IMG/VR virus record: IMGVR_UViG_3300027736_000034
Location: 1-64,000 of that record
DNA from: a virus
Length of the DNA: 64,000 nucleotides
Strand: one strand, 5' to 3'
In this document: piece after piece, positions 21,734 through 42,625 of the stretch
Layout: each line of letters begins with the position of its first letter
Numbering within the stretch: the stretch's first letter is position 1
Notes under the pieces: model-generated
Databases searched by the model: none
What the model saw: only the letters and a program-made list of their open reading frames with translations
What the model was told of the DNA's origin: nothing
Translations under genes and position numbers: made by a program

Positions 21734-21856
21734 AATTTCTCGTCAGTCTGAGGGGCTAAACCGCCTCAGTTGCATAAGCAAGGTACATGGATGTTTGTAC
21801 ATATTACAGGTGAAAGTCCTGTCGGGAGAAGATATATGCCATGAGGCACCAGTTTT

Positions 21857-21915
21857 AGGATAGCAACAGCAAATCAAAAAAACTTTCAACGTTTATGAAA
21901 AAAAATGCTATCCTG
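21857..21915 (+). ncRNA. CAGCAA-stem small RNA copy 1 (putative Y-like RNA)
   Basis: AGGATAGCA-ACAGCAA...TGCTATCCT-G closing stem; internal hairpin TTTCA/TGAAA. Confidence 0.65.
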
Positions 21916-21924
21916 TTTTATTAT

Positions 21925-22756: not shown

Positions 22757-22792
22757 ATTATTTAATTGTTTTATTTTGTATATAAATACCGT

Positions 22793-23323
22793 ATGACATA
22801 TACTGATACTTTTCAAATTCCTTACTTTATTGTTCCGTTGACAGAACACAGGGAGATTAAAGAAACTTTGTTAAAAATAATTAATGAAGATGAAATACAG
22901 GGGAAAATTGATACGGGCCAAAATATTTACAAAACAGATTATTTTGCACAAGAAAAAACCAGATTGTATTATAAAATAATAATGCCATTGATAGATAAAT
23001 CTCTAAGAAAATTTTCTGATATAATTGAATATGACAAACTAGACTCTAATCCTTCAGTTATCTGGTATCAACAATATAATAAATTGCATTATCATAGTTG
23101 GCACCATCATGGAAATTCTAGGTGGTCTATAGTGTATTATGTAGAACTTGCCGATGATTCTCCGGGAACACAATTTAAAGATTGTATTACATCAAAATAT
23201 ATCTCCCCAAATGTCAAAGAAGGTGATTTATTAATATTTCCTAGTTGGATGTTACATCGTTCTCCGCCGAATCTTTCTCAAAAAAGAAAAACAATAATTT
23301 CTTGTAATTTTTCTATAAAGTAA
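22793..23323 (+). CDS. Putative 2OG-Fe(II) oxygenase
   Basis: WHHH, IFPSWMLH, RKTIISCNF. Confidence 0.75.
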   Translation: MTYTDTFQIPYFIVPLTEHREIKETLLKIINEDEIQGKIDTGQNIYKTDYFAQEKTRLYYKIIMPLIDKSLRKFSDIIEYDKLDSNPSVIWYQQYNKLHYHSWHHHGNSRWSIVYYVELADDSPGTQFKDCITSKYISPNVKEGDLLIFPSWMLHRSPPNLSQKRKTIISCNFSIK

Positions 23324-23407: not shown

Positions 23408-23636
23408 TTCAACATCCGACCTAACGCTGGCAACAGAGGAAGTTCGGGACTTGTGGCAAGTGCGAGTAGGAGAAATTTACTTTGGTATTATGTAAAAATT
23501 TACTTTGGTATTTCGTTAAACTACCTAGATATAACAAGCAACACAAACAGAGTCAGGCAACACTTGCGCTATTGATTCGGGTTGTGGCAAAGATTAATGT
23601 TAGGATAAAACAAAATCCCGGCTATGGGATGTTGAA
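23408..23636 (+). ncRNA. rnpB: Minimal RNase P RNA
   Basis: P1 [21 protein letters not shown]2 CCTAACG/TGTTAGG, P3 CTG-GCAA-CAG, CR-I GAGGAAGTTCGGGAC, CR-V AACAAAATCCCGGCTAT forming P4 with bulged U. Confidence 0.85.
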
Positions 23637-24708: not shown

Positions 24709-25269
24709 ATGGCTGTTCTAGCACTAGATATTTCAGGAGTTCCAAGACAATGGATCTCGCACGATGACGCAATTACATACCACGCTAAAGATGCGGTAGC
24801 ATGGAGCATGGGTGAAATTGTAGCAAAGTATCGTGGGGGTATGCAAAACTCCGGCGATCAAAGTTATATTGAAACTTCTAGTATTATCGCTGTGAAAGGT
24901 CACGGATTCAACCCTTACAAACATGCTAATGTAGCATTGACTAACAGAACATTGTTTGGTCGGGACCGGCAAGTGTGTGCGTATTGTGGTAAACACCACG
25001 CTAACTACCATCACTTAAGCAGGGACCATATTGTCCCTAAATTTTTAGGTGGACAAAACACTTGGATGAACGTTGTTACTGCATGTAAAGATTGTAATAG
25101 TAAGAAGGGTCATAAGACATTGAAAGAAGCCCGCATGGAACTTCTGTACACACCTTATGTCCCAAACCATTACGAAAATATGATTTTACAACATCGTAAC
25201 ATTCTTGCTGACCAAATGGATTACTTGTTAGCAGGTGTTCCAAAGCACAGTAGAATTCTACTAAACTAG
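24709..25269 (+). CDS. HNH endonuclease
   Basis: CAYCG, DHIVP...GG...W.NVVTAC..CN..K. Confidence 0.9.
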   Translation: MAVLALDISGVPRQWISHDDAITYHAKDAVAWSMGEIVAKYRGGMQNSGDQSYIETSSIIAVKGHGFNPYKHANVALTNRTLFGRDRQVCAYCGKHHANYHHLSRDHIVPKFLGGQNTWMNVVTACKDCNSKKGHKTLKEARMELLYTPYVPNHYENMILQHRNILADQMDYLLAGVPKHSRILLN

Positions 25270-26802: not shown

Positions 26803-27063
26803 CTATATGTAAATGTATTAACAGGGTTACCCACTCCGTTAGGCTGAACGTGATTGTCTTTGGATTAATTTTCGGGTCACTAGTAGGCATGAAGCAGGGA
26901 TCTAGAGGATAGGTTGAGGCGACACCAAAGCCAACAGTACTGAAGGGATAGGCATCTCCCGGTTAGCGACGGATTAAACAGTGGGCTGTAATAAGAGTAA
27001 GTCAATTGTAAGCAAGTGGTGTTGCTAATTGCGTTTCTCCCCAGTTAATATATTTTCATATAG
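26803..27063 (+). ncRNA. Unassigned ~260-nt structured RNA enclosed by a long stem (cassette B)
   Basis: CTATATG-T-AAATGTATTAAC pairs with GTTAATATATTT-T-CATATAG; GC-richer non-coding interior. Confidence 0.55.
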
Positions 27064-27775: not shown

Positions 27776-28405
27776 ATGTTGCATAATATTTTTGGTCATG
27801 AAGTCTATATCAAAGAATTTGATAATTTGAATAAATTTGAACCTTATAAAAAACTTTTTACTAGGCAATTAATTAATTTAGGGCATGTGTATGTAGATGA
27901 TTCCACACATCACCCGGATATTCAGAAAAAGGGAAATTCGGTAAGTTCAGTAGCCAATGTTACAGATTTTCAAGGTCTTGTTGGATATTCCTTATTGAAA
28001 AAGGTACTTGAACCTGCAATTATAGAAGCTAGGTCATCCATGTTTAAAAACATAGAAATAAAAAAAATTAGTTTAACCAGGACCTGGCATAATATTAATT
28101 ATAAAAATTCTTATGTAGTATCACATTCACATATTAGACCATCTGATCAGGTAGCAAACCCTAATAGAAGGATGCAAGTTTGTATATTGTATCTTGAAGC
28201 ACCTGAGGGTTCAGGGAAACTTGCTATTATTGATGATGATCGTGAAAATTTACGTTGTACTGATTTTGATCAAGACAAAGTACATTATATAACAGTTAAA
28301 CCTAACATGTTAATTTGCCATGGTAGTGATGTAAATCATGCAGTTTCGGAACATCTTTCTGATGAAAGAAGAATATGTGTTATATTTGAATATATAATAG
28401 AATAA
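27776..28405 (+). CDS. Putative 2OG-Fe(II) oxygenase
   Basis: SHSH...HAVSEH...RRICVIF. Confidence 0.7.
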   Translation: MLHNIFGHEVYIKEFDNLNKFEPYKKLFTRQLINLGHVYVDDSTHHPDIQKKGNSVSSVANVTDFQGLVGYSLLKKVLEPAIIEARSSMFKNIEIKKISLTRTWHNINYKNSYVVSHSHIRPSDQVANPNRRMQVCILYLEAPEGSGKLAIIDDDRENLRCTDFDQDKVHYITVKPNMLICHGSDVNHAVSEHLSDERRICVIFEYIIE

Positions 28406-29463: not shown

Positions 29464-30084
29464 ATGTCAGATTTTGTAGTAGTTGATAATTTTTTTCATA
29501 AGTTTGAAGTCCATGGACTGAGTAAACTTATATTTAACAACGGAGAAATAAATTGGAAATACGGCTATAAAACCACATATAATAGCGACACTAATGCATC
29601 CTTAAAGGAAATAGAAAGACTATTTATAAAAAATGATAGTAATATAAATGTAGAAAATGACAGAATGCTTACTCACCCGTTAATACTACACAACACTGTA
29701 GTTAGTGATATGTATAATAAATTTGCTAATATTAAGCCACTCATTGAGAGTAAATTTGAAGTGAATATAAAATACATTCAAGAAATGAAAATAAATTTTT
29801 CATTGCCCGGAGAAATAAAGCCTGATCAATATTTAATGCCTCATTATGATAATCATAAATTGGGTTCAAAAACTATGATTTTATATATGAATGATTGTGA
29901 AGGAGATACTATTTTGTTTAATGAGTATTATGAAGGTTATCATAATACAGATAAAAAAACAATCTATAAAAGATACTCTCCAAAAATAAATAAAGCAATT
30001 ATGTTTGATGCTAGAAGGTATCATTCTAATTCATTTTCTACTAAAAATATTAGAGCAGTAATTGTTGCTAATATTATAATATAG
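29464..30084 (+). CDS. Putative 2OG-Fe(II) oxygenase
   Basis: PHYD, LYMND..GDT, FD...YH, R.VI. Confidence 0.75.
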   Translation: MSDFVVVDNFFHKFEVHGLSKLIFNNGEINWKYGYKTTYNSDTNASLKEIERLFIKNDSNINVENDRMLTHPLILHNTVVSDMYNKFANIKPLIESKFEVNIKYIQEMKINFSLPGEIKPDQYLMPHYDNHKLGSKTMILYMNDCEGDTILFNEYYEGYHNTDKKTIYKRYSPKINKAIMFDARRYHSNSFSTKNIRAVIVANIII

Positions 30085-31526: not shown

Positions 31527-31587
31527 AGGATCGGTTCAGCAAATAAATACATTCAACTTTTAATTGAAACCGTAAAAAACGATCCTG
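31527..31587 (+). ncRNA. CAGCAA-stem small RNA copy 2 carrying a Lys(UUU) anticodon stem-loop
   Basis: AGGATCGGTT-CAGCAA...AACGATCCT-G; TTCAA-CTTTTAA-TTGAA. Confidence 0.7.
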
Positions 31588-31609
31588 TTATATCTAGTGT
31601 AAATAGACA

Positions 31610-32221
31610 ATGAATCATATTGACAAATTAAAAAGTAAACTTGACTCTGTTAAAACAACAGAAAGAATTTTACCCACCCATGAAATAGAACAAAAATATA
31701 TAGATAAAATATATGAATTGGATTTATCTTCTGAAATAGATTCAGATACAATTGTAAATTTAATTTATAAGTTCAAAGAACAATATCCAATATCAAATAC
31801 ATCAAATCTTTTTTCTTGGCATAGTAATTATGATACTCATAGAAAAACATCAGATTTTAACACATTGATAAATGTAATAGAGAATAAATTAAAGTTAATT
31901 GAGACTAATGATAGAGATGGAGCTGTAAATAAAGTTTTAGATAGTTGGGTGGCAATATATAATAAAACAGAATATGCACAATGGCATAGCCATTCAGATA
32001 ATAGTGGTAGTAGATGGTCAGTGGTTTATTATGCAAAAGCAGAAGAAAATTGTGCTCCTATAGTTTTTAAAGATTTAGAAATAGTGCCTAAAACAAATAT
32101 GTTATTAGTATTTCCTTCCCGAGCCTATCATATGGTAAGAAAATCACAATCTGATATAGAAAGAATAATCTTTGCAGCAAACCTAGATATAGTTTATATA
32201 AAAAATAAAATATCTCCCTAA
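31610..32221 (+). CDS. Putative 2OG-Fe(II) oxygenase
   Basis: WHSH, SVVYY, FPS...H.V, RII...N; stop overlaps tRNA-Trp 5' end. Confidence 0.75.
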   Translation: MNHIDKLKSKLDSVKTTERILPTHEIEQKYIDKIYELDLSSEIDSDTIVNLIYKFKEQYPISNTSNLFSWHSNYDTHRKTSDFNTLINVIENKLKLIETNDRDGAVNKVLDSWVAIYNKTEYAQWHSHSDNSGSRWSVVYYAKAEENCAPIVFKDLEIVPKTNMLLVFPSRAYHMVRKSQSDIERIIFAANLDIVYIKNKISP

Positions 32222-32299: not shown

Positions 32300-32920
32300 A
32301 TGTTCTACTATCAAACCAATTTTGATTTTTCACTTGCTTCTAAACAATATATAAAAAATATATATAAGCATAAGTTTAATCAAAATTACTATCATGACCT
32401 TGAATCAGAAAAACTGATATCACCTATCAGCCCGCCGGGTAGAGAAATAGTTAAGTTTCTATCAAAATATAATCTTAATATTATCTATCAAGGGATAATA
32501 GCATTCACTAGTAATAGTGATACTTGGTTTGAAGGTAATCCGCATGTTGATATAATGCGAATTAATAATGAACAAGTTCCAATAAGAACAAGATTCAATG
32601 TAATGATCGAGGGTAATATTGATGATACTATGTATTGGTGGAAAGATATTAGTTGGGGAAGCGAGCAATTAGTACAAAATAAATTTACACTTAAATCAGG
32701 TAGTACTTATGATTCATATAGTATCCCTGGTAATAGTACAAAAGAAAGATGGGATTATATGGGTGAGCCATCTGATAAAAAAGAAAGACTATTAAGCCCA
32801 AGTGCATTTGTAAGAACAGATTGCACACATACAGTAAATGTTTCCTCTGGTCCAAGACTAATAATCTCTGTAGCTTTTGCTGAAACATTTGATGATATAG
32901 TTAGTAGATTAAATAATTAA
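32300..32920 (+). CDS. Putative 2OG-Fe(II) oxygenase-like protein
   Basis: PHVD...HTV...PRLIISV. Confidence 0.6.
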   Translation: MFYYQTNFDFSLASKQYIKNIYKHKFNQNYYHDLESEKLISPISPPGREIVKFLSKYNLNIIYQGIIAFTSNSDTWFEGNPHVDIMRINNEQVPIRTRFNVMIEGNIDDTMYWWKDISWGSEQLVQNKFTLKSGSTYDSYSIPGNSTKERWDYMGEPSDKKERLLSPSAFVRTDCTHTVNVSSGPRLIISVAFAETFDDIVSRLNN

Positions 32921-32922
32921 CT

Positions 32923-33007
32923 GCCCTGGTGGCGAAATTGGTAGACGCACCAGATTTAGGTTCTGGCGCCGAAAGGCGTGTCGGTTCGAGTCCGACCTAG
33001 GGCACCA
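32923..33007 (+). tRNA. trnL: tRNA-Leu(TAG)
   Basis: TT-TAG-GT; long arm. Confidence 0.95.
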
Positions 33008-33065
33008 CAAAAACTCGCCTTGACTGATGGCGTATAATGAGATAAGTAATCAGTCAATAAATTTC

Positions 33066-33139
33066 GGGGGATTGATGTAATGGTAGCCTGGGACCTTTGC
33101 AAGGTTTTCGCAACAGTTCGATTCTGTTATCCTCCACCA
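33066..33139 (+). tRNA. trnA: tRNA-Ala(TGC)
   Basis: G3:U70; TT-TGC-AA. Confidence 0.85.
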
Positions 33140-33144
33140 ACTTT

Positions 33145-33257
33145 AGGATACTAACAGCAACATTTAACATTCCAAACTTTGGGTTGTGGGTTCAAGTCCC
33201 ATCAGTAGCAATACTGTAGATCAATGGTAGATCAAAAGTCGTTAAAAATGTATCCTG
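33145..33257 (+). ncRNA. CAGCAA-stem RNA copy 3 with circularly permuted tRNA-like domain (YrlA-type Y RNA)
   Basis: T arm GTGGG-TTCAAGT-CCCAT, closed acceptor CAGTA-GCAA-TACTG, then D arm GATC-AATGGTA-GATC, within AGGATAC/GTATCCT. Confidence 0.8.
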
Positions 33258-33265
33258 TTAAATAT

Positions 33266-33342
33266 GCGTGATTAGTTCAGCATGGAAGAACGCTACCCCG
33301 ACACGGTAGAGGTCAAAAGTTCAAATCTTTTATCACGCACCA
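33266..33342 (+). tRNA. trnV: tRNA-Val(GAC)
   Basis: CC-GAC-AC loop (C33). Confidence 0.85.
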
Positions 33343-33361
33343 TGAATACGATAAATAATTA

Positions 33362-33437
33362 CGCGGGAAGGGCCCGGTCACCGGCGAGGTCTCATAAGCC
33401 TTTGCAATCCTTGGTTCAAATCCAAGTCCCGCATCCA
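33362..33437 (+). tRNA. trnfM: Initiator-type tRNA-Met(CAT), atypical D arm
   Basis: CGCGGG start, C1:A72 mismatch, CT-CAT-AA. Confidence 0.75.
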
Positions 33438-34988: not shown

Positions 34989-35005
34989 CTCAGTGGTAGA
35001 GTGTC
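34979..35005 (+). pseudogene. Orphan 5' fragment of tRNA-Val (acceptor 5' strand and D arm)
   Basis: GCCTCGT-TA-ACTC-AGTGGTA-GAGT-G; complementary to ACGAGGT at 35634..35640. Confidence 0.7.
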
Positions 35006-35048
35006 TTTTTTGTTCAACTATGATAAATACTTGAGCAAGGAGATAATT

Positions 35049-35585
35049 ATGTACAACTGTAGTCAATGTGATAAAGAGTTTAGTAACCATAGAGCATTAA
35101 ATGCACACCAAATAGCGCATAAAGATAGAGCAAGTAGATATTCAATTGATAGAAAACAACCGGACTCTAAGTATAATACAATATTTAAATGTTTATGCTG
35201 TGAGAAAGAAATGAGATACAATCACGGAACAACAAATAAATTTTGTTCCATAGCATGTAATTCTAAATATCAATGGGAAAAGATATCAATTCCTAAAATT
35301 GAAAGCGGACAAGGTGGAAATTTAAAAAGGTATTTAAAAGAATTATTTGGGGATAAATGTTCTGAATGTGGACAAGAAGGTAATTGGAATAACAAGCCAC
35401 TTGTGTTACAATTAGATCATATAGACGGTGATAGTGATAATAACTACCCAAATAATGTAAGATTACTTTGTCCTAACTGCCACACTCAAACAGAGAATTT
35501 TGGTAGTAAAGGAAAAGGTAGTAGGTATAAGAAGGTAACTAAAAGAAATAGTTATTTAAGAGAATATAAGGCCTCGGTAGTTTAA
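35049..35585 (+). CDS. C2H2 zinc finger plus HNH endonuclease (putative homing endonuclease)
   Basis: CSQC...H...H; CSECG, LQLDHIDG...N..LLCPNCH; RBS AAGGAG. Confidence 0.9.
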   Translation: MYNCSQCDKEFSNHRALNAHQIAHKDRASRYSIDRKQPDSKYNTIFKCLCCEKEMRYNHGTTNKFCSIACNSKYQWEKISIPKIESGQGGNLKRYLKELFGDKCSECGQEGNWNNKPLVLQLDHIDGDSDNNYPNNVRLLCPNCHTQTENFGSKGKGSRYKKVTKRNSYLREYKASVV

Positions 35586-40998: not shown

Positions 40999-41109
40999 AG
41001 GATCGGTTCAGCAATTTAACCATTACTGGATGATGGGCAAAGATAACTTCAAGCCTATCAAGGTGAGTTTGGATTTCTCACTTGAATAAAAAAGTACAAA
41101 ACGATCCTG
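40999..41109 (+). ncRNA. CAGCAA-stem small RNA copy 4
   Basis: AGGATCGGTTCAGCAA...AACGATCCTG, identical ends to copy 2. Confidence 0.7.
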
Positions 41110-41120
41110 TTTTTTATATT

Positions 41121-41177
41121 AGGGTGCTTCCAGCAAATTTAAAAACTTTACTTGAAATCAAGCAAAACAGCACCCTG
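41121..41177 (+). ncRNA. CAGCAA-stem small RNA copy 5
   Basis: AGGGTGCT-TCCAGCAA...AGCACCCT-G. Confidence 0.7.
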
Positions 41178-41209
41178 TTGCAAACAATACTCACAGAAAG
41201 GAGAAAACT

Positions 41210-42625
41210 ATGCAATTCGCAAACGCAATACTAAACCAAGAGGCTCGTACCACTAATGGTATGAAGGCTCGTGAATCAACCGCTAACGCATGTGTTGATT
41301 TGTTCTATAACATCGGTGCAAGCCGTGGTAAGAACATCATCCCGCAATTCACAGCGGCTTATGTAGAAAATGCAGACCTAGCATTACGTATCGTCCAATG
41401 GGCACGTGATGTTCGTGGTGGTGCGGGTGAACGTGAATTGTTCCGTCAAGTCATGTTGCACTTGGAAAAGACTAACCCAGCTGATGCTGCTCGTCTTATG
41501 TCTAAGGTACCAGAACTTGGTCGTTTTGACGATTTGCTAGTTTTTCAAACTAAGGATATGAAGGCTAAGGCTTACACATTGCTTGGTGACTACTTGCGTC
41601 AAAATAACGGACTCGCTGCTAAGTGGACTCCGCGTAAGGGCAAGATCGCGGCTGAAATTCGTGACTTCTACGGTATGACTCCAAAGCAATATCGTAAGAC
41701 TCTTGTTGGTATGACTACTGTTGTTGAAACACAAATGTGTTCTAATGACTGGGATAACATCAACTACAGTCACGTTCCATCTGTAGCGCATAGTCGTTAC
41801 AAGAAGGCTTTCGGTCGTCATGGTACAACTTATGCTGAGTACATCACTAAGTTGGTTAAGGGTGAAGCAGGTGTGAAGATCAATGCTAACGCAATCTTCC
41901 CGCACGATGTGTTGAAGGGTCGTATCAGTGGATACGGTGCTACAACTTGGTCTAAGACTGAGTTGGATGCTATTGAAGCACAATGGAATGCATTGCCTAA
42001 CTACGTTGGTGACTCAAGCGTGTTGCCTCTAGTTGACGTTAGTGGCTCTATGACCTGCATTGCAGGGAAGAAGGGTTCTACTACTTGCCTAGAAATCGCA
42101 GTTAGCTTGGGATTGTATTTTGCTGATAAGAACAAGGGTAAGTTCAAGGACTGCTTCTTGACTTTCAGCGACAAGCCAAAGTTGTTGAACCTTAAGGGTT
42201 CAATCAACCAAAAGATTGACCAAATGGTCAGTTCTGATTGGGGTATGAGTACAAACCTACATGGTGCGTTCAATCAAATCCTTGACACTGCTGTTAAGAA
42301 CAAGGTATCACAAGCAGAAATGCCTGAAACTTTGATGATTTTCAGCGACATGCAATTTAACGCCTGCGTTAAGTATGATGACAGTGCAATGGAAATGATC
42401 GCACGTAAGTACGCCGAAGCAGGTTACGATTTGCCTAAGGTAGTTTTCTGGAACTTGAATGCTAGCGGAAACGCTCCAGTTGAGTTTGACAAGGGTGGTA
42501 CCGCTCTTGTGTCAGGATTCAGCCCAGCAATCGCTGCTAGCGTATTGGGTGCAGACCCAGATGCATTCTCGCCTGAAGCAATTATGCTTAAGGCCGTGAT
42601 GAATAGTCGCTACGATTTGGCGTAA
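41210..42625 (+). CDS. Ro60/TROVE-like helical domain plus vWA protein (DUF2828-type)
   Basis: RDVRGGAGERELF, GRFDDL, AAKWTPR; MIDAS DVSGSM, ST, FSDMQF; VFWNL, LVSGFSP. Confidence 0.8.
   Translation: MQFANAILNQEARTTNGMKARESTANACVDLFYNIGASRGKNIIPQFTAAYVENADLALRIVQWARDVRGGAGERELFRQVMLHLEKTNPADAARLMSKVPELGRFDDLLVFQTKDMKAKAYTLLGDYLRQNNGLAAKWTPRKGKIAAEIRDFYGMTPKQYRKTLVGMTTVVETQMCSNDWDNINYSHVPSVAHSRYKKAFGRHGTTYAEYITKLVKGEAGVKINANAIFPHDVLKGRISGYGATTWSKTELDAIEAQWNALPNYVGDSSVLPLVDVSGSMTCIAGKKGSTTCLEIAVSLGLYFADKNKGKFKDCFLTFSDKPKLLNLKGSINQKIDQMVSSDWGMSTNLHGAFNQILDTAVKNKVSQAEMPETLMIFSDMQFNACVKYDDSAMEMIARKYAEAGYDLPKVVFWNLNASGNAPVEFDKGGTALVSGFSPAIAASVLGADPDAFSPEAIMLKAVMNSRYDLA

What the first reader, a model, noticed from the sequence alone, without database searches (positions are those of the whole stretch)
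33145..33257. Circularly permuted tRNA mimic (YrlA-type architecture) on a non-canonical handle
Seen, in order: ACTTT (33176-80), variable GGGTT, T arm GTGGG-TTCAAGT-CCCAT, acceptor closed by a GNRA loop CAGTA-GCAA-TACTG, TA, D arm GATC-AATGGTA-GATC, A, AAAGT (pairs with ACTTT), then TTAAC/GTTAA and the CAGCAA closing stem. There is no anticodon loop and no CCA. Known: this T-acceptor-D permutation, with the anticodon stem continuing into the Ro-binding stem, is the hallmark of bacterial and phage YrlA Y RNAs. It independently supports the Y RNA identity of the whole CAGCAA family.
Basis: partly seen in the sequence, partly recalled or inferred. Interest (0 to 1): 0.85.

Follow-up and report, generated by a model that had tools for sequence, protein, structure and literature searches.

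The report
Phage tRNA-mimic RNA for Ro60-like protein
A large freshwater phage carries, between two tRNA genes, a small RNA gene shaped like a tRNA with a sealed acceptor end and no anticodon loop, mounted on a conserved "handle" that travels with a Ro60-like ring protein, so it is most likely a new kind of Y RNA.

Summary
The T-arm / closed hairpin / D-arm order occurs once in the window and 0 times in 100 shuffles.

Rfam's YrlA model aligns end to end at 43.7 bits, E 6.6e-10 for the record, but below its gathering score of 69. The element fails two defining YrlA features. It has ACAGCAA where YrlA has GNCGAAN0-1G, and the 87-kb record holds no TROVE gene.

Instead it belongs to a large family sharing a terminal stem plus unpaired ACAGCAA. 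I found 86 distinct tRNA-like members in viral contigs. The stems covary.

Of 46 viral records with such an RNA, 41 encode a DUF2828/DUF7788 protein and 1 a TROVE protein. Of 17 control records with other handles, 0 encode DUF2828 and 8 encode TROVE.

The window's own DUF2828 protein (41210-42625) folds as Ro60. Four more handle RNAs lie in the window.

Verdict: a YrlA-type tRNA mimic on a different handle, and a probable Y RNA of a Ro60 paralogue. Binding is inferred, not shown. This scan has noted the same system on other DNA many times. My searches found no paper or Rfam family describing it.

The parts
33144..33259 (+). Element B: the whole handle RNA with a tRNA-like cargo, about 116 nt. 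It lies between tRNA-Ala (33066-33139) and tRNA-Val (33266-33342).
33144..33151 (+). P1 5' strand, TAGGATAC. It pairs with 33250-33257.
   Evidence: In the family, 83 of 86 members have at least 6 contiguous Watson-Crick pairs here, against 15% in the cross-pairing null. 7 of 7 pairs show changes on both sides.
33154..33160 (+). Unpaired ACAGCAA motif. It takes the place of YrlA's GNCGAA motif and is the candidate protein contact.
   Evidence: It is invariant in alignment A2, but the pattern search required it.
33163..33168 (+). P2 5' strand TTTAAC, facing GTTAAA at 33241-33246. Specific to this copy and unverified.
   Evidence: No comparative support.
33176..33180 (+). Anticodon-stem 3' strand ACTTT (tRNA positions 39-43). 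It pairs in trans with 33235-33239.
   Evidence: The outer three pairs are paired in 74-99% of 77 sequences, with covariation.
33181..33185 (+). Variable loop GGGTT. Its last T is position 48, which can pair with A15.
   Evidence: Levitt pair covariation: 55 of 77 compatible, against a maximum of 43 in 10,000 shuffles.
33186..33202 (+). T arm: GTGGG TTCAAGT CCCAT.
33203..33216 (+). Acceptor-like stem closed by a GNRA tetraloop: CAGTA GCAA TACTG.
   Evidence: All 5 pairs covary, but a hairpin was required by my filter.
33219..33233 (+). D arm GATC AATGGTA GATC, with G18 G19. Its second pair is A-T where 73 of 80 relatives have C-G.
33235..33239 (+). Anticodon-stem 5' strand AAAGT (tRNA positions 27-31).
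33250..33257 (+). P1 3' strand GTATCCTG, followed by TT.
21856..21917 (+). Handle RNA E, with a short hairpin cargo.
   Evidence: RF01414 scores 21.6 bits.
31527..31589 (+). Handle RNA A. Its cargo is a 5-bp stem with the 7-nt loop CTTTTAA.
   Evidence: RF01414 scores 18.9 bits.
40999..41111 (+). Handle RNA C, with a roughly 90-nt cargo of unknown fold.
41120..41179 (+). Handle RNA D. It ends 31 nt upstream of the Ro-like gene.
   Evidence: RF01414 scores 24.8 bits.
41210..42625 (+). Gene for a 471-aa Ro60-like protein with domains DUF2828 and DUF7788/vWA (MIDAS D276, S278, S280). It is the presumed protein partner.

Best explanation
Element B is a small non-coding RNA of the Y-RNA kind.

Making the RNA (inferred). 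It is co-transcribed with the phage's tRNA array and set free by the enzymes that trim the neighbouring tRNA-Ala and tRNA-Val.

Fold. It has two modules:
- A handle: a 7-8 bp terminal stem closing the 5' and 3' ends, with an unpaired ACAGCAA just inside the 5' strand and a GUU tail.
- A tRNA-shaped body: T arm, D arm, variable loop, a 5-bp acceptor-like stem sealed by a GCAA loop, and an anticodon stem made in trans that runs on towards the handle. This body cannot be charged and cannot decode.

Partner (inferred). The handle is bound by the phage's own ring-shaped Ro60-like protein (DUF2828/DUF7788, 41210-42625), much as Ro60 binds the GGUCCGA or GNCGAA strand of Y RNAs.

Role (inferred by analogy only). 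The tRNA-like body is the adaptor end. It either brings tRNA-recognising enzymes or exonucleases to the ring, or presents a tRNA look-alike as bait. This would work alongside the four sister RNAs, which carry other cargoes on the same handle.

Shown here: the sequence anatomy, stem covariation across the family, the genomic linkage to the protein gene, and the protein's predicted Ro60 fold. Not shown: expression as a discrete RNA, binding, and function.
For: (1) YrlA model. It aligns full length at 43.7 bits, E 6.6e-10 per record.

(2) Family size. 99 passed the hairpin filter, giving 86 distinct sequences with ACAGCAA + T arm + closed hairpin + D arm.

(3) Covariation in 77 sequences. 93.3% of cells are paired, against 64.1% when shuffled and 34-47% when slid. 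The covariation score is 0.763 against 0.193. P1 has 7 of 7 pairs with two-sided changes. P1 has at least 6 Watson-Crick pairs in 83 of 86, against 15% in the cross-pairing null. The trans anticodon stem has at least 3 pairs in 45 of 80, against 16% in the null. The tertiary 15:48 pair covaries: G:C 29, A:U 26.

(4) Partner gene.
- DUF2828 in 36 of 46 records, DUF7788 in 39 of 46, either one in 41 of 46, TROVE in 1 of 46.
- In the control set without ACAGCAA: DUF2828 in 0 of 17, TROVE in 8 of 17, with TROVE beside a classic-handle YrlA.
- In 73 relatives' loci, 69 have a closed CAGCAA handle within 300 nt upstream of the gene. Scrambled motifs give 0-3 of 73.
- In GTDB contigs, 53 of 68 loci with such an RNA hold the gene within the 8 kb fetched.

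(5) Protein fold. AF2 pLDDT 94.2, pTM 0.93. The 12 best Foldseek PDB entries listed (E 2.2e-7 to 3.0e-5) are all Ro60/TROVE, aligned over 507-546 columns.

(6) Cultured phages.
- Mycobacterium phage Nicholas has three handle RNAs directly after its 'Ro-like RNA binding protein' gene.
- E. coli phages SUSP1 and Bas63 each have four in the tRNA array after the gene.

(7) Close strain. RNA-library contigs of a close relative (2 runs of 1 study) span tRNA-Ala, B and tRNA-Val. One search's shown rows, which omit 31 differences, list none inside 33143-33262.
Against: - There is no binding or expression experiment. The RNA-library contigs may be DNA carry-over and show no RNA ends.
- B lies 7.95 kb from the protein gene, outside the 4-kb rule used for YrlA.
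- Two close relatives, L229 and L231 (99% and 97% protein identity), lack B entirely. Seven others have a 56-nt handle RNA in the same slot. B is therefore dispensable.
- The YrlA score is below Rfam's gathering score, and the GNCGAA motif is absent.
- Nearest-neighbour energy prefers another fold: -27.5 against -21.3 kcal/mol.
- The homologue sets were collected with patterns that fix ACAGCAA, the T loop and the D motif, and with hairpin and P1 filters. Pairing percentages in the acceptor-like stem and P1 are therefore partly built in.
- The shuffles do not control for relatedness, and many contigs are relatives of each other.
- 5 of 46 records lack the protein. Three are fragments (11-17% complete), one is a complete 59-kb genome, and one has TROVE instead.
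- In a preprint, Bas63 gp130 alone, moved into T7 or expressed from a plasmid, restored plaquing on a Ppl host (PMC11482910). At least one activity of the protein therefore needs no phage handle RNA.
Confidence: 0.7

Rival explanations
1. A free-standing tRNA decoy. The RNA works on its own, for example by soaking up a host tRNA-targeting nuclease or a tRNA-modifying enzyme. The handle only protects its ends, and the Ro-like protein is irrelevant to it.
For: The tRNA-like body is intact in its tertiary-pair positions. Sister RNAs and many family members display anticodon-arm-like hairpins with 7-nt loops. gp130 acts without phage RNAs in T7.
Against: This does not explain why the same handle sits within 300 nt of the Ro-like gene in 69 of 73 loci. 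It also does not explain why handle type tracks protein type: ACAGCAA with DUF2828, other handles with TROVE.
Confidence: 0.12
2. The handle is a processing or maturation signal for RNAs cut out of tRNA arrays, recognised by an RNase rather than the Ro-like protein. Its co-occurrence with DUF2828 arises only because both are common in tRNA-rich phages.
For: Handle RNAs sit a few nucleotides from tRNA genes. The stem base (AGR...YCU G) is sequence-conserved.
Against: In the control set, the four records whose match was a tRNA pair (L027, L052, L067, L109) hold no DUF2828. In Nicholas the three handle RNAs follow the Ro-like gene, and the only annotated tRNA in the 6.4 kb fetched lies about 2.7 kb upstream of them. 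A 7-10 bp stem is short for RNase III (my own knowledge).
Confidence: 0.1
3. A decayed or rearranged tRNA gene: a relic of recombination in a fluid tRNA array, with no function.
For: B is present or absent among near-identical relatives. Rfam YrlA also gives weak hits on tandem tRNAs (and the controls).
Against: The acceptor is closed by a GNRA loop and the order is permuted. A junction of two tRNAs would not give this. 86 distinct relatives keep the same design with compensatory changes. One search's shown rows, which omit 31 differences, list none inside B in a relative strain, while five are listed in tRNA-Val.
Confidence: 0.04
4. A permuted tRNA gene whose transcript is circularised and re-cut to give a working tRNA, as in some algae.
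For: The 3' half comes before the 5' half in the gene order.
Against: There is no anticodon loop. The acceptor stem is 5 bp with a tetraloop, with no discriminator or CCA site and no bulge-helix-bulge. ARAGORN finds nothing.
Confidence: 0.01

Closest known systems
YrlA Y RNAs of bacteria and mycobacteriophages, bound by Rsr/Ro60 (Rfam RF02553; Chen et al. 2014, PMC4201824; abstract and passages read)
   Same: Both have a tRNA-like module in the order T arm, closed acceptor-like stem-loop, D arm. The anticodon-side strands lead into a 5'/3' terminal stem that carries a short conserved motif in its 5' strand. The Levitt 15:48 pair covaries. Both are encoded with a Ro60-fold protein and often near tRNA genes.
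   Different: The motif is ACAGCAA, not GNCGAAN0-1G. The partner gene is DUF2828/DUF7788, not Pfam TROVE. The score is 43.7 bits against a gathering score of 69. B is 7.95 kb from the gene. Many family members, though not B, also keep a local anticodon-arm hairpin.
Thermus phage phiLo phiRo60 with Yrl1/Yrl2 (NAR 2025, PMC12135203; abstract and passages read; PDB 9KOP, 9L5Y)
   Same: A phage-encoded Ro60-fold protein with Y-like RNA genes just upstream. The RNAs have a 5'-3' stem flanking a bulge that carries the motif. These two structures are among the best Foldseek matches to the window protein.
   Different: phiLo's RNAs carry a CGAA motif and its protein is named a TROVE domain protein. 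Binding and a PNPase complex were shown there; nothing is shown here.
Class I RNAs of dictyostelid amoebae (Rfam RF01414; Kjellin et al. 2021, PMC7919456; passages read)
   Same: A short covarying stem joins the ends. An unpaired 11-nt motif next to the 5' strand has T3, C6, C9, A10 and A11 conserved; B reads ACTAACAGCAA. The conserved start is AAG and the end is CUGU, against AGG...CCUGUU here. In the 87-kb record, RF01414's three best hits are exactly the short handle RNAs D, E and A.
   Different: All hits are below the gathering score (18.9-24.8 bits against 41.5). Class I RNAs are about 60 nt, eukaryotic, have a DUSE promoter and were reported as unique to Dictyostelia. B has a 90-nt tRNA-like cargo. 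Whether amoebae have the DUF2828 partner was not tested here.
Bas63 gp130 (PhageMaP preprint, PMC11482910; passages read)
   Same: gp130 is 38% identical to the window protein over 456 residues. The preprint calls it Ro60-like and guesses that some 'tRNA genes' downstream are Y RNAs.
   Different: The preprint names no RNA. I find four unannotated CAGCAA-handle RNAs between Bas63's tRNA genes. Its only phenotype, countering Ppl, needs the protein alone.

Membership tests
YrlA (Rfam RF02553; Chen et al. 2014) | T-arm-like and D-arm-like stem-loops with tRNA consensus nucleotides | tested here: met
   GTGGG-TTCAAGT-CCCAT and GATC-AATGGTA-GATC; aligned to the model's T and D helices.
YrlA (Rfam RF02553; Chen et al. 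2014) | [quoted passage not shown] | tested here: met
   CAGTA-GCAA-TACTG, 33203-33216.
YrlA (Rfam RF02553; Chen et al. 2014) | GNCGAAN0-1G motif near the 5' end | tested here: not met
   The 5' side reads TAACAGCAACA. The motif definition comes from PMC4201824.
YrlA (Rfam RF02553; Chen et al. 2014) | Encoded within 4 kb of a TROVE-domain Ro60 gene, on the same strand | tested here: not met
   No PF05731 match in the 87-kb record, which is only 24% complete. The nearest Ro-fold gene is DUF2828-type, on the same strand, 7.95 kb away.
YrlA (Rfam RF02553; Chen et al. 2014) | Score at or above Rfam's gathering threshold | tested here: not met
   43.7 bits against 69.
YrlA (Rfam RF02553; Chen et al. 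2014) | Bound by Rsr; carries tRNA modifications (pseudouridine 55, dihydrouridine) | not testable with these tools
   Needs an experiment.
CAGCAA-handle RNAs linked to DUF2828/DUF7788 proteins (no published name found; noted repeatedly by this scan) | A terminal stem of 6-10 bp joining the two ends, with sequence that covaries | tested here: met
   TAGGATAC/GTATCCTG; family statistics.
CAGCAA-handle RNAs linked to DUF2828/DUF7788 proteins (no published name found; noted repeatedly by this scan) | (A)CAGCAA 0-3 nt after the 5' strand of that stem, and a G(T)T tail after the 3' strand | tested here: met
   33154-33160 and 33257-33259.
CAGCAA-handle RNAs linked to DUF2828/DUF7788 proteins (no published name found; noted repeatedly by this scan) | A DUF2828/DUF7788 gene in the same genome | tested here: met
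   41210-42625: PF11443 at 6.3e-29 and PF25043 at 7.6e-46.
CAGCAA-handle RNAs linked to DUF2828/DUF7788 proteins (no published name found; noted repeatedly by this scan) | Physical binding of the handle by the protein | not testable with these tools
   Inferred from co-occurrence only.
Dictyostelid Class I RNA (RF01414) | About 60 nt, a 6-bp terminal stem, an 11-nt motif, and a score above the gathering threshold | tested here: not met
   B is 116 nt and is not hit. The stem and the motif positions T3, C6, C9, A10 and A11 are met by direct reading. The sister RNAs D, E and A score 24.8, 21.6 and 18.9 bits against 41.5.
Permuted tRNA gene | Both halves give a complete tRNA, with an anticodon loop, a 7-bp acceptor and a CCA site | tested here: not met
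   ARAGORN finds nothing at this position.

The most novel reading that the evidence does not exclude
The CAGCAA-handle RNAs and DUF2828/DUF7788 proteins form a second, ancient Ro/Y-type particle, parallel to Ro60 with its Y RNAs. It would be shared by phages of many hosts, by bacteria and by eukaryotes, with the unexplained Class I RNAs of social amoebae as its eukaryotic members.

On this reading the exchangeable cargo (a whole tRNA body as in B, or bare anticodon-arm mimics as in the sister RNAs) programmes the ring for tRNA surveillance or for defeating host defences. B would be the bridging form that ties this lineage to YrlA.
Probability: 0.35. Interest if true: 0.9.

Novelty: new variant of a known kind. 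Interest (0 to 1): 0.7.

Why it matters
DUF2828/DUF7788 is a very large family with no established function. It has 6040 representatives of 50%-identity clusters at E <= 0.001 and occurs in 702 deposited phage genomes. Those include KVP40, Felix O1-like coliphages, Listeria, Staphylococcus and Campylobacter phages, and 95 mycobacteriophages.

If the handle RNAs are its partners, four things follow:
- The family gains an RNA ligand and a testable mechanism.
- Y RNAs extend beyond TROVE proteins.
- Unannotated RNA genes are revealed inside the tRNA arrays of model phages. Bas63 has four.
- The one phenotype known for such a protein, countering the Ppl defence, can be re-examined with its RNAs.

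B matters specifically because it joins a recognised YrlA-type tRNA mimic to this other handle.

Tried and rejected
- RNA repair and Ro genes in the own record. TROVE, RtcB, T4 Rnl1 and Rnl2-type ligase gave no match. The record is 24% complete, and the Rnl1 control rang nowhere, so nothing follows from this.
- Other Rfam families. At E <= 10 on 33000-33400, only tRNA, YrlA and a chance-level mascRNA hit appeared.
- Single-sequence folding. The MFE uses a local hairpin UCCAA-ACU-UUGGG and a UAAC/GUUA extension instead of the trans anticodon stem. I do not take either fold as settled for the inner part.
- P2 (TTTAAC/GTTAAA). It is paired in only 6-33 of 14-61 comparable cells, so there is no support.
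- Anticodon-arm mimics. 38 of 86 family members have at least 4 of 5 stem pairs around a 7-nt loop. B does not, so this is not a feature of B.
- Unbiased class count. Of 187 distinct closed handles found without any tRNA motif in relatives' loci, 11 of 100 long ones have a T arm followed by a D arm. Long spans include chance closures, so this is weak.
- My guess that the ~200-aa ORFs between tRNAs were homing endonucleases was wrong for most. Four are 2OG-Fe(II) oxygenase paralogues and two are HNH.
- Read laying used contigs only. It gives no starts, ends, strand or level. Bins without cover in the RNA runs are not evidence.
- Literature. 'DUF2828' gave 5 papers, none on phage or RNA. 'YrlA'+'phage' gave 6. 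'Ro60'+'Y RNA'+'bacteriophage' gave 16. 'Ro-like RNA binding protein' gave 6 genome notes. None describes an ACAGCAA handle.
They could include a phage of this kind.
- PMC10870794 is not held.

Full report
**Setting.** The window is the first 64 kb of an 87.1-kb IMG/VR virus record that CheckV rates 24% complete, so it is a fragment of a very large phage. DNA runs labelled freshwater hold it. It carries 34 tRNA genes between 21.4 and 35.9 kb, all on the + strand. The finding lies between tRNA-Ala (33066-33139) and tRNA-Val (33266-33342).

**Observation.**
- The terminal stem is (T)AGGATAC/GTATCCT(G). CAGCAA is not part of a stem; it sits unpaired next to it.
- A pattern for the T-loop / short spacer / D-arm order matches once in the window and never in 100 shuffles.
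- ARAGORN and the Rfam tRNA model do not call it.
- Rfam YrlA (RF02553) aligns over all 114 model positions at 43.7 bits, E 6.6e-10 for the record. This is under the curated 69 bits.
- A tandem-tRNA false positive of the same model scores 24.7 bits.
- Single-sequence folding gives a z-score of only -2.1 and prefers a different inner fold. The case therefore rests on comparison, not on energy.

**Relatives.**
- A general scan of IMG/VR for T arm / spacer / D arm, filtered for a closed hairpin, gave 24 loci.
- Reading their flanks showed two handle types: a GGCGAAG/GGTGTAG-like type and an ACAGCAA type.
- Of the 21 records held, 8 have a TROVE gene, in most cases within about 1 kb of the RNA. 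None of those 8 has ACAGCAA. 4 have DUF2828, and these are exactly the 4 with ACAGCAA.
99 passed the hairpin filter, giving 86 distinct sequences.
- I searched the first 50 of my 80 pattern-derived loci, which is 46 records. DUF2828 is in 36, DUF7788 in 39, either one in 41, and TROVE in 1.
- The five records without the protein are three fragments, one complete 59-kb genome, and one complete genome that has TROVE.
- The same pattern in one genome per prokaryote species gave 113 loci. 68 of them pass the hairpin and stem filters, and 53 of those 68 hold the protein gene within the 8 kb fetched.

**Structure support.**
The covariation score is 0.763 against 0.193.
- P1 has two-sided changes at 7 of 7 pairs.
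- The T stem has two-sided changes at its 3 variable pairs.
- The acceptor-like stem has them at 5 of 5 pairs.
- The D stem is nearly invariant. B carries a double change there (A-T for C-G).
- The trans anticodon stem is supported for its outer three pairs only.
- Null models that pair one sequence's 5' side with another's 3' side give 15% against 97% for P1, and 16% against 56% for at least 3 trans pairs.
- The tertiary Levitt pair covaries: G15:C48 in 29 sequences and A15:U48 in 26, with no G15:U48. The total of 55 of 77 compares with a maximum of 43 in 10,000 shuffles. B has A15:U48.
- Caveats: the collecting patterns fixed the motifs, my filters demanded a hairpin and P1, and the shuffles ignore relatedness.

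**The protein.**
- ORF 41210-42625 is DUF2828 + DUF7788, PHROG 850 'RNA-binding protein'. It has an invariant MIDAS DxSxS motif.
- With 118 homologues aligned, AF2 gives pLDDT 94.2 and pTM 0.93.
- The 12 best Foldseek PDB entries listed are all Ro60/TROVE structures: frog, human, Deinococcus and Thermus phage phiLo. E-values run from 2.2e-7 to 3.0e-5, TM 0.36-0.62, over 507-546 columns at 11-16% identity.
- A sequence profile reaches these structures only weakly, at E 0.008 over the vWA part.
- The family is annotated 'Ro-like RNA binding protein' in mycobacteriophages. Pfam calls these proteins DUF2828/DUF7788, not TROVE.

**Local genetics.**
- The window has five handle RNAs, all on the + strand: E, A, B, C and D. 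C and D lie directly upstream of the protein gene.
- In 73 loci of relatives (72-99% protein identity), 69 have a closed CAGCAA handle ending within 300 nt upstream of the gene. Five scrambled motifs give 0-3.
- Nicholas has three handle RNAs in tandem just after its gene, and the middle one is tRNA-like.
- SUSP1 and Bas63 each have four between their tRNA genes, and the last one is tRNA-like.
- The slot holding B is variable. Seven relatives have a 56-nt handle RNA with a hairpin cargo there. Two close relatives (99% and 97% protein identity) have nothing. So the handle is the constant unit and the cargo is exchangeable and dispensable.

**Expression.** Contigs from two RNA-library runs of one study span tRNA-Ala, B and tRNA-Val of a close strain. 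One search's shown rows, which omit 31 differences, list none inside B. This shows presence in RNA libraries, not transcription.

**Literature.**
- Chen et al. 2014 defined YrlA by the GNCGAAN0-1G motif, the T/AS/D modules and closeness to TROVE genes, and searched only TROVE-annotated genomes.
- phiLo phiRo60 binds two upstream Y-like RNAs with a CGAA motif.
- A preprint calls Bas63 gp130 Ro60-like, shows it counters Ppl even when moved alone into T7, and guesses that some downstream tRNA genes are Y RNAs.
- My four searches found no paper describing the ACAGCAA handle.
- Following a lead from earlier notes of this scan, I found that Rfam's Dictyostelium Class I RNA model ranks the three short handle RNAs as its top three hits in the record, all below threshold.
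- The published Class I features match the handle: a terminal covarying stem, an unpaired 11-nt motif with T3, C6, C9, A10 and A11, start AAG and end CUGU.

**Verdict.** B is a real, conserved, structured RNA gene. It works like a YrlA: a tRNA mimic on a protein-binding handle. It is not a member of YrlA as defined, because it has the wrong motif, the wrong partner family and a score below threshold. It is best filed as a tRNA-bodied member of the CAGCAA-handle family that accompanies DUF2828-type Ro60 paralogues. Binding, processing and function are inferred.

Noticed in passing
window 33364-33437 (+): A tRNA-like gene with acceptor GCGGGA/TCCCGC, a normal T arm and a 7-nt loop CTCATAA (CAT anticodon), but an odd D region. 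ARAGORN and Rfam tRNA do not call it. It is conserved, with changes, in relatives.
   Followed up: partly
window 22766-23323, 27776-28405, 29464-30084, 31610-32221 (+): Four paralogous 2OG-Fe(II) oxygenase genes are scattered between the tRNA genes. Only 24709-25269 and 35001-35585 are HNH. A relative's RNA-library contig joins 31593 to 32228 and 32286 to 32922, so it lacks ORFs 31610-32221 and 32300-32920.
   Followed up: partly
window 21856-21917 (+): A fifth CAGCAA-handle RNA, TAGGATAGCA ...
   Followed up: yes
window 31527-31589 (+): Handle RNA A carries only a 5-bp stem with the loop CTTTTAA, the shape of a Lys(UUU) anticodon arm. Many family members carry similar 7-nt loops with T at loop position 2 and a purine at position 6.
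   Followed up: partly
L425 (Escherichia phage JohannRWettstein/Bas63, MZ501086), record 82072-82906: Four unannotated CAGCAA-handle RNAs lie in the tRNA array after g130, and the last is tRNA-like. The two annotated minus-strand ORFs bas63_0137 and bas63_0138 overlap two of them and may be spurious.
   Followed up: partly
L309 (Vibrio phage KVP40) 2457-2496: An ACAGCAA with a 6-bp closure overlaps the start codon of KVP40's own DUF2828-type gene. It may be chance or a self-regulating site.
   Followed up: no
L308 (Mycobacterium phage Nicholas) 3935-4192: Three handle RNAs in tandem lie in the unannotated 380-nt gap after the 'Ro-like RNA binding protein' gene.
   Followed up: partly
window 23408-23636 and 26803-27063: Earlier notes of this scan propose a very small RNase P RNA and a 260-nt multibranch RNA here. 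Rfam gave no match at either place at E <= 5. I did not examine them further.
   Followed up: no
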